Source: Eledone cirrhosa
Lineage: Eukaryota
DNA: 64,000 bases
Assembly: GCA_964016885.1 (NCBI GenBank)
Contig: OZ024751.1
Coordinates: 25,854,001-25,918,000 of the forward strand
Direction: 5' to 3'
Shown: positions 49,046-63,408 of the stretch, piece after piece
Numbering within the stretch: position 1 is the stretch's first letter
Layout: each line of letters opens with the position of its first letter
Made by a program: the position numbers and the translations under genes
The notes under the pieces: model-generated
Databases searched by the model: none
Seen by the model: the letters and a program-made list of their open reading frames with translations, nothing else
Told to the model about the DNA's origin: nothing

Positions 49046-49678
49046 GCACAGAAGATATTGTTAGGTGATAAACATTTCACAACAAATAACAAATAAGGAA
49101 AAGAAACGATTCCTTCTACTTAACTTTAAGTTGATGAAAACATTTTCTAGAATGTTCTAGCAACCACAAACAGACCTGCGGCAAAGTCACAACATTGAAA
49201 ATATATTATGAATCATCATATATATTTTAGATTTATTTCTTGGAATATATAGCGTTCTTTGTAAAATGTCAGAATATAGTGAGAATTTTACACTGAGTAC
49301 ACGGTTTTGTGGATTCCACTTTCTTAGCTCGCAGGGGAAATCACAGATAAATTTCAAACTAATCACACCAAGTACTTTTAAAAAAGGTAAAAATGGCGGC
49401 TCTAGTTAGATGTTAGTTATATAAGTATAGATAAATTGTAAAATAGAAAAAAAAGAAGTAAGGAGGGCGTTGTAGGTAAAACATGTGGTGTTGAAAATTA
49501 AATAGAAAATTAAAGTTGTTTTAGTTTTGTATTTCGCAATCATTCGAAAGAATAACAAATGTTTTGCCGATAATACTTTGGCTTGTTTGTTTCATTATAT
49601 GTTTGTGTTGTTGTTTTTCTGGATTTCTTATATTATTAACGTTTTGTTGGATTGTATCACTTATGTTTGTATATATAC

Positions 49679-49774
<96 letters not shown>

Positions 49775-49776
49775 TG

Positions 49777-49827
49777 AGATTCTACAGGACTAGAACTGTT
49801 TCATTCATTAGAAATCATCAGGAATCT
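49777..49827 (-). ncRNA. Type I hammerhead ribozyme (family A)
   Basis: RC: AGATTC-CTGATGA-T-TTC(taat)GAA-T-GAAACAG(ttctagtc)CTGTA^GAATCT. Confidence 0.85.
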
Positions 49828-50131
49828 TAAAACTGTTATACTCTGCTATGTATTGAGTACCTTACTGACTGTGGTTACCTCCGATTCAACCCGGAATAAC
49901 GTATATATATATATATATATATATACATACATAGTCGGCAACATTAGAAAAGTACAGTCATGTGTGTGTGTGTGTGTTTCTGTGTGTGTATGTGTACATA
50001 TGTGTATGTGTTTTGTGTCTATGTGCGTGTGTTTGTGTGTGTGTGTGTGTGTGCGTGTGTGTGTGTGTGTGTTTGGCTGTGTGTGTCGGTGTCATTGTAT
50101 GTGTATATATATATGTGTCTGTGTTTATGTG

Positions 50132-58498: not shown

Positions 58499-58503
<5 letters not shown>

Positions 58504-58690
58504 AACGAGTAGGACCCCGACGGCTGAGCTCAAGCCGTTTCGACGGCTAATTCAGTCCAGAATTAGCCGTCGAAACGGCTTGAGCTCAGCCGTCGGGGTC
58601 CTACTCGTTCCTATTACCCACTCTACTACCCTACGTATTGAGTACTTTGGTGCGTTATGGTCCACCTGGTTCTTTACCACATTTCCTTCG
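58499..58690 (+). mobile_element. Fold-back element family B
   Basis: Perfect 55-bp arms 58499-58614, loop AGTCCA; (TA)n on both sides. Confidence 0.85.
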
Positions 58691-58717: not shown

Positions 58718-58829
58718 CCCTACGCTATAGTCCATGAAATATATGGTACTCAATACATAGCAGAGTATATAAGTTTTAATATAGAAGAGCTTCTACAGGA
58801 CTAGAAGGGTTTCATTCGTGAGAAATCAT
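58718..58829 (-). mobile_element. Family A element, hammerhead truncated inside the core by (TA)n
   Basis: Matches 63313-63398. Confidence 0.75.
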
Positions 58830-63272: not shown

Positions 63273-63275
<3 letters not shown>

Positions 63276-63408
63276 TTATTCCGGGTTGAATCGGAGGTAA
63301 CCACAGTAAGTAAGGTACTCAATACATAGCAGAGTATAAAAGTTTAAATATAGAAGAGCTTCTACAGGACTAGAACTGTTTCATTCGTGTGAAATCATCA
63401 GGAAGCTC
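63273..63408 (-). mobile_element. Family A element with intact hammerhead (63356-63408)
   Basis: RC: GAGCTTC-CTGATGA-T-TTC(acac)GAA-T-GAAACAG(ttctagtc)CTGTA^GAAGCTC, then about 80-nt tail and (TA)n. Confidence 0.88.

What the first reader, a model, noticed from the sequence alone, without database searches (positions are those of the whole stretch)
49772..49902. Ribozyme flipped relative to its tail at stem I: a clue to how Penelope-type inversions form
Seen: at 63273-63408 ribozyme and tail are co-linear. Here the same tail (TATACTCTGCTATGTATTGAGTACC...CCGGAATAAC) is on + while the hammerhead is on -, joined through the 6-nt stem I arm GAATCT. Inference: the + segment starts at the self-cleavage site. 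A cDNA ending there has a 3' end identical to the 5' stem I strand and could re-prime on an antisense copy, giving this inversion.
Basis: partly seen in the sequence, partly recalled or inferred. Interest (0 to 1): 0.75.

Follow-up and report, generated by a model that had tools for sequence, protein, structure and literature searches.

The report
Penelope-type flipped ribozyme stub in TA repeat
This is one copy of a very abundant, short, non-coding Penelope-type jumping element in a TA repeat, with its hammerhead-like part lying back to front beside its tail; this known kind of insertion likely forms when both cut DNA ends copy the same RNA, not when the ribozyme cuts itself.

Summary
At window 49770-49900 a hammerhead-like motif lies on the minus strand next to a 64-nt tail on the plus strand; at 63275-63408 both are collinear. 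The locus is not special. Exact-pattern counts in the 3.0-Gb genome give 663 matches with the inverted motif 2-45 nt from the tail, 5,446 with an inverted arm before a near-complete direct copy, and 8,270 tail ends.

This is the known Penelope-like-element (PLE) signature: inverted 5' copy, tail at one end, (TA)n target. Here the inverted arm ends at element position 2. The direct part starts at spacer position 61/62, 14-15 nt past the predicted cleavage site, with 1 nt of overlap.

Junctions cluster where the RNA has short inverted repeats:
- Exact stem-I flips make up 11 of 93 parsed junctions.
- Most junctions lie near the 5' end of the motif.
- Some direct arms start 1-3 nt before the cleavage site.

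Sampled palindromes carry exactly one tail: 48 of 48, against 53 double-tailed loci genome-wide. Their two arms usually share the same variants.

I read this as both cut target ends priming cDNA on one RNA at two UA-rich sites, followed by 3'-3' joining. That fits published in vitro work. Reads did not confirm this locus independently.

The parts
49676..49769 (.). Upstream (TA)n microsatellite, the insertion target.
   Evidence: All sampled family copies lie in (TA)n.
49770..49827 (-). Inverted arm. On the minus strand it holds element positions 2-59: the hammerhead-like motif at positions 2-53 (49776-49827) plus the first 6 nt of spacer. The outer edge merges with the TA run, so it is ambiguous up to about position 61. 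It carries no tail.
   Evidence: L001: Y=61, X=2.
49782..49783 (-). Predicted hammerhead cleavage site, between A46 and G47 on the minus strand. Cleavage was not tested.
   Evidence: Sequence. The numbering of the hammerhead core is recalled, not taken from a call.
49822..49827 (+). GAATCT, the reverse complement of the 5' arm of stem I and identical to the 3' arm.
49828..49836 (+). Nine-nt remnant of the spacer (positions 62-70, TAAAACTGT), where the direct arm begins. Collinear copies have 8-9 more spacer bases (CATCTATAT) before it.
49837..49900 (+). The 64-nt tail (positions 71-134), ending in AATAAC. Its last 27 nt fold as a stem-loop.
49901..49927 (.). GTA followed by the downstream (TA)n.
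63275..63408 (-). Collinear copy of another subfamily (stem I GAGCTTC/GAAGCTC). Motif at 63356-63408, spacer at 63339-63355, tail at 63275-63338. It has no inverted arm and is flanked by (TA)n.
   Evidence: L031.
58745..58827 (-). Third copy. It is 5'-truncated at about motif position 13, and its tail is cut after 25 nt.

Best explanation
The locus is one insertion of an abundant, roughly 135-nt non-coding Penelope-type element in a (TA)n microsatellite. Its flipped hammerhead-like part is the family's usual inverted 5' arm, which likely forms during integration rather than by ribozyme self-cleavage.

Inferred steps:
1. The element's RNA runs from the motif's first bases through a 17-nt spacer and a 64-nt tail.
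2. Both 3' ends of the cut (TA)n target prime reverse transcription on the same RNA. One primes at the UA-rich 3' flank beyond the tail and gives the direct, tailed arm. The other primes at an internal UAUA at the spacer/tail border (positions 57-61 or 71-74) and gives the inverted, tail-less arm.
3. The internal cDNA runs to the RNA 5' end (position 2 here).
4. The two antisense cDNAs are joined 3' to 3', helped by whatever short inverted repeat is at hand, and each is completed on the other.

At this locus the tail-primed cDNA got only 8-9 nt past the internal priming site, so almost nothing but the tail is in direct orientation.

Shown directly: the anatomy, the genome-wide counts, the junction positions, the one-tail rule and the agreement between arms.
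Inferred: the priming order, use of a single RNA and the joining step.
For: 1. The arrangement is the family norm. One search gave 663 matches, one search gave 5,446 and one search gave 8,270 tail ends, all with controls of 0. In the unbiased sample of the first 70 tail places, 38 have an inverted arm, 20 are long direct copies, 10 have no inverted arm and 2 are cut within the tail.

2. The outer edge of the inverted arm is fixed. It lies at position 68 (18 copies) or 61 (13 copies) of 37 parsed, next to (TA)n. Both are UAUA sites.

3. There is exactly one tail per palindrome. Double-tailed palindromes number 53 loci genome-wide. Of the first 48 distinct palindromes with a tail-less end, all 48 carry a tail at the other end: 36 by their counterpart, 6 by the listings, and 6 fetched.

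4. The inverted arm is usually the more complete one. X<Y' in 26 of 37, X>Y' in 8 and equal in 3. A fold-back of the tail-primed cDNA cannot give this.

5. The two arms come from one template. They are identical over 48 nt in 19 of 42 loci, against 22 of 202 between-locus pairs. The loop-2 variant is the same in 31 of 34, rare variants included.

6. Junction hot spots are inverted repeats of the RNA: stem I (2-7/47-52), CUG/CAG (8-10/31-33), AUUC/GAAU (4-7/23-26), and the palindromes AGCT and CTAG. The 3-nt centre occurs in both orientations, GGATTCC 6 times and GGAATCC 4 times among the 100 matches listed.

7. Identical junctions need no amplification. The window's junction occurs in 6 copies plus 1 variant, spread over 3 haplotypes that also exist among collinear copies. 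Given X=2 in about 25% of junctions and about 3% per spacer position, roughly 5 of 663 is expected (my own estimate).

8. Published work agrees. A purified PLE protein cleaves and extends both target strands. It starts reverse transcription at two internal sites whose interval is the 'tail', and it does not need ribozyme cleavage (PMC11167929, main text read).
Against: - Most copies duplicate positions 2-70 in both arms. One RNA would have to be copied twice, by strand displacement or re-use. Nothing here shows that, and classic twin priming does not predict it.
- Frangieh et al. saw no difference in start sites between the two strands, and their start sites were not homologous to the target. 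Here the two arms use different sites, and both sites are UA-rich like the target.
- Arm agreement would also follow if whole palindromes were re-copied as units.
- 49 of 93 junctions carry filler or extra segments rather than overlap.
- No autonomous element sharing this 3' end was found: 0 of 30 best GIY-YIG loci.
- No RNA data were available.
- The samples are the first places on contigs C1 and C2 only.
- Junction calls depend on my own aligner and on four genomic reference copies.
- The locus itself lacks independent read support.
Confidence: 0.55

Rival explanations
1. The RNA had cut itself at the hammerhead site. The cDNA ended there, with a 3' end identical to the 5' strand of stem I. 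It re-primed on an antisense copy and so flipped the ribozyme.
For: - Exact stem-I flips with the full spacer exist: 11 of 93 parsed junctions, plus 1 of 70 in the unbiased sample (L067). That is about five times a uniform share.
- Among about 30 distinct 5'-truncated copies, starts at positions 44-47 are mildly enriched, 7-8 against about 3.6 expected (counted by eye).
- A cleaved template and an uncleaved one would give the same junction sequence, so sequence alone cannot exclude this model for the flips.
Against: - This locus lacks the 9 nt that follow stem I in collinear copies.
- The flips are the class with the longest inverted repeat (6-7 nt). Shorter repeats give smaller peaks, for example CAG with 7 of 93.
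- 5 of 93 junctions start at positions 44-46, before the cleavage site.
- Most junctions lie at the motif's 5' end, 5,446 matches against 663, so templates were mostly uncleaved.
- In vitro, ribozyme mutants insert normally, and no RNA-seq ends map to the ribozyme site (PMC11167929).
- PLE hammerheads cleave poorly in vitro (PMC4209133, passages).
Confidence: 0.08
2. Rearrangement at the DNA level after insertion. An ordinary palindromic insertion (inverted arm plus full direct copy) later lost its direct hammerhead by slippage between short direct repeats. Alternatively, the core was inverted between the stem-I arms during replication.
For: - Palindromic copies hold GAATCT(C) twice in direct orientation, at the end of the inverted arm and in the 3' arm of the direct motif. 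A deletion between the two gives exactly the flip.
- Internal deletions between ATTTC repeats (positions 14-18 and 53-57) are seen in 5 of 100.
- That palindromes are unstable is general knowledge, recalled here.
Against: - The window's junction has only 1 nt of overlap.
- Direct-arm starts form a continuous series over spacer positions 54-70, with the inverted arm ending at 1-5. That is where a tail-primed cDNA blocked at the internal priming site would stop.
- The same junction occurs in three haplotypes.
Confidence: 0.12
3. The flipped arrangement arose once. It was then spread as a composite element by further retrotransposition, and this locus is such a copy.
For: - 6 copies (plus 1 variant) share the window's junction and 17 share the 'short' junction, on different contigs with different flanks.
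- In the short class the outer edge is more variable, below position 60 in 4 of 17 against 1 of 37 in the unbiased set. This looks like 5' truncation of a composite RNA.
Against: - Each junction class holds 3-4 haplotypes that also occur among collinear copies.
- The copy numbers are about what independent events predict.
- In such an RNA the hammerhead would be antisense.
Confidence: 0.15
4. A single cDNA folds back. The tail-primed cDNA reaches the RNA 5' end, turns round and copies itself. It is then captured by the other (TA)n end at the first TATA it synthesises.
For: - Many junctions are near-perfect palindromes with 0-6 nt centres.
- The arms agree.
- The outer edge lies at TATA sites.
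Against: - Fold-back requires the direct arm to be at least as complete as the inverted arm. The opposite holds in 26 of 37 copies, and at this locus (X=2, Y'=61).
- The asymmetric centres occur in both orientations, 6 against 4.
Confidence: 0.05

Closest known systems
Insertions of endonuclease-bearing Penelope-like elements: pseudo-LTR, adjacent inverted 5'-truncated copy, and a 'tail' at one end (Craig et al. 2021, PMC8557442; passages read)
   Same: An inverted partial copy abuts the 5' end. An extension is present at only one end. The target is a microsatellite or AT-rich sequence. A hammerhead motif lies in the repeated part. The paper calls the mechanism 'still undefined'.
   Different: The unit here is tiny, 135 nt with a roughly 700-nt long form, and has no ORF. 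The tail is 64 nt rather than 30-40 nt. The direct arm can shrink to the tail alone, as at this locus.
Hydra clade of C-terminal-endonuclease PLEs (Craig et al. 2021, PMC8557442; passages)
   Same: The paper reports that almost all Hydra families insert into (TA)n, that canonical hammerheads are universal in the clade, and that its hosts include molluscs and other aquatic invertebrates.
   Different: No RT/endonuclease partner sharing this 3' end was found here (0 of 30 loci).
PAc (Poseidon, Anolis) in vitro integration (Frangieh et al. 2024, PMC11167929; main text read)
   Same: Both target strands are cleaved and extended. There are two reverse-transcription start sites, with the tail lying between them. 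Targets are AT-rich. Ribozyme cleavage is dispensable.
   Different: In vitro the two strands showed the same start-site use, and the sites were not homologous to the target. Here the arms use different sites (one tail per insertion), and both sites are UA-rich.
Twin priming of human L1 (Ostertag and Kazazian 2001; recalled, not read here)
   Same: The second target end primes internally on the same RNA, giving an inverted 5' segment next to a direct 3' segment with microhomology at the join. The window's locus has exactly this layout.
   Different: In most copies of this family the two arms duplicate the same 70 nt, which L1 twin priming does not give. The internal site is also fixed rather than variable.
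Animal non-LTR retrozymes (Cervera and de la Pena 2020, PMC7229834, passages; Li, Clavereau and Pollet 2026, bioRxiv 10.64898/2026.07.22.740005, abstract and passages)
   Same: Both are short non-coding elements with a type I hammerhead, thought to be moved by PLEs. A U-U mismatch in helix II is reported for one axolotl family.
   Different: Retrozymes are 170-400 nt head-to-tail arrays that yield circular RNA. These copies are solitary or head-to-head in (TA)n. Circular RNA could not be tested.

Membership tests
Hammerhead ribozyme, type I | Conserved core CUGAUGA ... GAAA and an NUH cleavage triplet, in the right order. | tested here: met
   The core does not vary across the subfamilies that differ in stem I and loop 2. 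The core numbering is recalled.
Hammerhead ribozyme, type I | A three-helix junction (stems I, II, III) supported by covariation. | tested here: inconclusive
   The minimum-energy fold gives the three helices in 2 of 3 subfamily representatives, but no better than shuffles (z -0.27 and -0.70). Stem I shows two compensatory changes between subfamilies (A4-U50 to C4-G50, A2-U52 to G2-C52). Stems II and III never vary.
Hammerhead ribozyme, type I | A match to a curated covariance model (the Rfam hammerhead families). | tested here: not met
   No match at gathering score in the window. None at E up to 10 in 49700-49950, both strands.
Hammerhead ribozyme, type I | A Watson-Crick pair closing helix II next to the core. 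| tested here: not met
   The closing pair is U opposite U (UUUC...GAAU). A comparable U-U mismatch is reported for an axolotl retrozyme hammerhead (PMC7229834 passage).
Hammerhead ribozyme, type I | Self-cleavage. | not testable with these tools
Penelope-like element insertion (non-autonomous derivative) | An inverted 5'-truncated copy directly upstream of the direct copy. | tested here: met
   38 of 70 unbiased tail loci have one.
Penelope-like element insertion (non-autonomous derivative) | A tail extension at only one end. | tested here: met
   53 double-tailed loci against thousands with a single tail. 48 of 48 sampled palindromes have exactly one tail.
Penelope-like element insertion (non-autonomous derivative) | An AT-rich or (TA)n target. 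| tested here: met
   The flanks printed are (TA)n in nearly all copies.
Penelope-like element insertion (non-autonomous derivative) | An RT plus GIY-YIG ORF in the element, or an autonomous partner sharing the 3' end. | tested here: not met
   The 135-nt form and the roughly 700-nt form are non-coding as far as I inspected them by eye; I ran no ORF scan on the long form. The genome holds 10,595 GIY-YIG candidates. 0 of the 30 best loci carry this family's 3' end, and only 30 were looked at.
Animal non-LTR retrozyme | Head-to-tail tandem units of 170-400 nt that yield circular RNA. | tested here: not met
   Copies are solitary or head to head. One local 59-nt-period cluster was seen. Circular RNA is not testable here.
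L1-type twin priming product | Inverted and direct segments are adjacent, non-overlapping parts of one RNA. | tested here: inconclusive
   This is met at this locus (inverted 2-61, direct 61-134). It is not met in the majority class, where both arms hold positions 2-70.

The most novel reading that the evidence does not exclude
Thousands of mini-insertions in this genome record, at single-base resolution, how Penelope-like elements build their inverted-plus-tail structure. One RNA is reverse-transcribed from both cut target ends, always at two different UA-rich start sites, which gives exactly one tail. The two cDNAs are then spliced 3' to 3' at inverted repeats of the RNA, the hammerhead's own stems included. 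The ribozyme would shape junctions as a piece of self-complementary sequence, not as a catalyst.
Probability: 0.45. Interest if true: 0.6.

Novelty: new member of a known kind. Interest (0 to 1): 0.4.

Why it matters
How Penelope-like elements integrate is still described as undefined (PMC8557442). The first in vitro system dates from 2024 (PMC11167929).

The locus itself is ordinary. The family around it is useful, though: the unit is small enough, and there are enough copies, for every junction to be read to the base.

Three results give in vivo constraints that an integration model must meet:
- each palindromic insertion carries exactly one tail;
- the inverted arm is usually the more complete one;
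- junctions sit at inverted repeats of the RNA.

They also argue that the ribozyme's catalysis is not what makes the inversions.

Tried and rejected
- **Rfam.** No family reached gathering score in the window. No hammerhead match at E up to 10 around the locus; only low-complexity microRNA-like noise appeared.
- **Sequencing runs.** No RNA holder was listed.
- **Logan contigs of X1-X4.** These are thousands of short pieces, and no listed piece spans the stretch or bridges 49827/49828.
- **Raw RAD-seq reads of X12-X14.** Depth never falls to zero across 49825-49834. No bridging record is listed, however, and part-alignments from collinear copies could explain the depth. Neither call supports or refutes the locus.
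- **Tail-less/tail-less palindromes by pattern.** The shortened patterns hit the same loci on opposite strands and over-count next to TA runs. I therefore compared the listed places and fetched the 6 that remained unresolved.
- **Long-copy comparison.** The first BLAST was swamped by microsatellite hits, so I read the sequences directly instead.
- **First junction caller.** It over-extended through gaps. It was replaced by the caller. 6 of 100 loci in the sample and 3 of 70 in the tail sample were left unparsed because the tail start was too diverged or cut.
- **Autonomous partner.** 0 of 30 GIY-YIG loci carry the family's 3' end.
- **Earlier notes.** Nothing by place or by sequence.
- **Considered and rejected:** assembly artefact, given too many concordant loci and opposite-strand joints in raw reads; and a one-off inversion.

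Full report
**1. What is in the window**

I number the element from the collinear copy at 63275-63408 (minus strand):
- hammerhead-like motif, positions 1-53, with the predicted cleavage after A46;
- spacer, positions 54-70;
- tail, positions 71-134, ending in AATAAC.

At 49770-49900 the tail (49837-49900) is on the plus strand. The motif (49776-49827) is on the minus strand. Nine bases of spacer (49828-49836) lie between them, and (TA)n lies on both sides. A third, doubly truncated copy lies at 58745-58827.

The tail start occurs 3 times in the window against 0 in shuffles.

No Rfam hammerhead model matches. The motif has the core CUGAUGA...GAAA and a GUA triplet. It has a 6-7 bp stem I, a 3-bp stem II closed by U-U, and a 4-bp stem III with an 8-nt loop containing CTAG. 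The predicted minimum-energy fold is the three-way junction in 2 of 3 subfamily representatives, but it is no more stable than shuffled sequence. Stem I carries two compensatory changes between subfamilies, while the core never varies.

I therefore call it a hammerhead-like motif of untested activity.

**2. The arrangement is a family norm**

The window is G000 C11:25854001-25918000 in a 3.0-Gb assembly.

The whole 131-nt flipped arrangement recurs at 29 or more loci (40 of 385 candidates scored). The collinear copy recurs widely too, and 24 of the 30 fetched collinear loci have an inverted partial copy directly upstream.

Exact-pattern counts, all with reversed-pattern controls of 0:

| Pattern | Matches |
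|---|---|
| Inverted motif 2-45 nt before the tail | 663 |
| Inverted motif 46-100 nt before the tail (inverted arm plus near-full direct copy) | 5,446 |
| 28-nt tail end | 8,270 |

These are matches, not loci; a few loci are counted twice.

The first 70 tail places serve as a sample unbiased for upstream structure. They break down as:
- 38 with an inverted arm;
- 20 long direct copies, with 90 nt or more upstream of the motif;
- 10 with no inverted arm;
- 2 cut inside the tail.

Long copies share at least about 650 nt upstream of the motif and are non-coding as far as I inspected them by eye.

**3. Junction anatomy**

X is the inner end of the inverted arm, Y is its outer end, and Y' is the start of the direct arm.

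In the unbiased set:
- Y is 68 in 18 copies and 61 in 13 of 37. Both are UAUA sites next to the TA run.
- X is 1-4 in 21 of 37.
- X<Y' in 26, X>Y' in 8 and equal in 3.

In the first 100 places, 93 were parsed:
- X is 1-5 in 68 and 8 in 21.
- Y' spreads over positions 27-70.
- Peaks lie at 47 (11), 54 (11), 31 (7) and 67-69 (17).

Two of the peaks coincide with short inverted repeats of the RNA:
- 47 with stem I (6 nt shared);
- 31 with CUG/CAG (3 nt).

Part of the peak at 54 goes with a separate class, internal deletions between two ATTTC repeats.

Other junctions sit on AUUC/GAAU, on the palindrome AGCT at the 5' end of one subfamily, or on CTAG in loop III (L029). Filler or extra segments occur in 49 of 93.

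The window's locus has X=2 and Y'=61 with 1 nt of overlap. Six copies share that junction (L001-L004, L006, L008), and L009 is a variant. Seventeen copies share a still shorter junction (X=2, Y'=67, overlap CT).

Each of these two classes contains 3-4 haplotypes that also occur among collinear copies. Their numbers are about what independent events would give, so I see no need for a flipped 'master' copy. I cannot exclude some re-copying, though.

**4. Against the cleavage-site model**

- The direct part at this locus lacks the 9 nt that follow stem I in collinear copies.
- Most templates were copied through the motif (5,446 matches against 663).
- 5 of 93 direct arms start at positions 44-46, which a cleaved RNA does not contain.
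- Among about 30 distinct simple 5'-truncated copies in TA runs, starts spread from 21 to 52, with about 3 at position 47 (read by eye).
- The flips are real and over-represented. They are also the junction with the longest inverted repeat, and they would look the same whether or not the RNA was cut.
- Frangieh et al. 2024 (PMC11167929, main text read) found that ribozyme-dead RNA inserts normally in vitro, and found no RNA-seq ends at the ribozyme site.
- Cervera and de la Pena 2014 (PMC4209133, passages) found low in vitro activity for PLE hammerheads.

**5. One tail per insertion, and arms from one template**

Palindromes with a tail on both sides number 53 loci in the genome.

Of the first 48 distinct palindromes with a tail-less end, all 48 have a tail on the other side. 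The two arms therefore almost never use the same start site.

Arms of one locus are identical over 48 nt in 19 of 42 loci, against 22 of 202 pairs taken from different loci. They share the loop-2 variant in 31 of 34, including rare variants.

The 3-nt asymmetric centre GGATTCC/GGAATCC occurs in both orientations, 6 and 4 times among the 100 listed matches.

**6. Mechanism**

These facts fit two-ended priming on one RNA.
- One target end starts beyond the tail.
- The other starts at the internal UAUA.
- The internal cDNA reaches the RNA 5' end.
- The two antisense cDNAs anneal 3' to 3' at an inverted repeat, or are joined with filler, and each is completed on the other.

If the tail-primed cDNA stops near the internal priming site, only the tail is direct. 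That is the arrangement at this locus.

This agrees with the in vitro finding that a PLE protein extends both strands and uses two start sites that bracket the tail (PMC11167929).

It differs in two respects. The two arms use different sites here, and both sites resemble the (TA)n target.

It leaves open how positions 2-70 get copied twice in most insertions.

A fold-back of the tail-primed cDNA is disfavoured by the X<Y' excess. Deletion from a full palindrome after insertion remains possible for individual loci.

**7. Comparison and novelty**

Three features are described for PLEs: the inverted 5' copy, the one-sided tail and the (TA)n targets. For the Hydra clade the paper also reports universal hammerheads (PMC8557442, passages).

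Earlier notes of this scan on other pieces of the same genome reached a similar reading. They are not independent evidence.

I found no paper in the held library that links Penelope to twin priming in its argument. Search one search returned 3 papers, none about PLE integration judging by titles and abstracts. Searches gave the papers cited here.

No autonomous partner was identified.

The locus is an ordinary member of a known kind. The quantitative rules from the family are modest new constraints on an open mechanism.

**8. Limits**

- Samples come from the start of contigs C1 and C2 only.
- Pattern counts need exact anchors.
- Junction calls rest on my own aligner and four genomic reference copies.
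- Several tallies from listings were made by eye.
- No RNA data were available.
- No read bridges this particular junction.
- Supplementary files of the cited papers were not opened. Those of Craig et al. and Frangieh et al. may hold junction or tail data that bear on the one-tail rule.

Noticed in passing
L064:1340-1400 and the other long copies (L062, L066, L069); in element terms, 30 nt upstream of motif position 2: Long copies have TATAAATA exactly 30 nt upstream of the A in CCAGATTCC. Short copies begin at that A, often with an extra G or a (GA)n run (L040, L046, L050, L057, L022). This suggests a TATA/initiator promoter that starts transcription at the first bases of the hammerhead motif. 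The short elements would then be copies of that short transcript. This is inference only.
   Followed up: partly
window 49874-49900 (plus strand); the same in all copies: The last 27 nt of the tail (GUUACCUCCGAUUCAACCCGGAAUAAC) fold as a terminal stem-loop. This may be the recognition or start site for the reverse transcriptase.
   Followed up: no
window 58500-58640: An unrelated, near-perfect long inverted repeat (arms of about 45 nt, GTAGGACCCCGACGGCTGAGCTCAAGCCGTTTCGACGGCTAATT...) lies just beside the truncated family copy.
   Followed up: no
L136, L147, L154, L160, L209: A recurrent internal deletion between two ATTTC repeats (motif positions 14-18 and spacer 53-57) removes most of the hammerhead in one subfamily. 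It occurs in 5 of 100 sampled junction loci.
   Followed up: partly
G000 C1:380494728-380494897 (listing): A local array with a period of about 59 nt. Each unit is a TA run plus a copy truncated at about position 45, repeated at least three times.
   Followed up: no
G000 C1:396493558-396493616 (listing): A rare inverted arm that begins with the reverse complement of the tail's 3' end (10 nt) and then jumps to motif position 45. This is an example of the second target end priming at the distal site.
   Followed up: no
whole genome: The first look found 10,595 GIY-YIG candidates, and all 150 scored were over the Pfam cut-off. The genome is therefore very rich in endonuclease-bearing PLE-type elements.
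   Followed up: partly
L069:970-1540 and L061: Long copies also form palindromes. In L069 the inverted arm runs about 210 nt upstream of the motif, with a 25-nt asymmetric centre. The inversion process is therefore not tied to the hammerhead region.
   Followed up: partly
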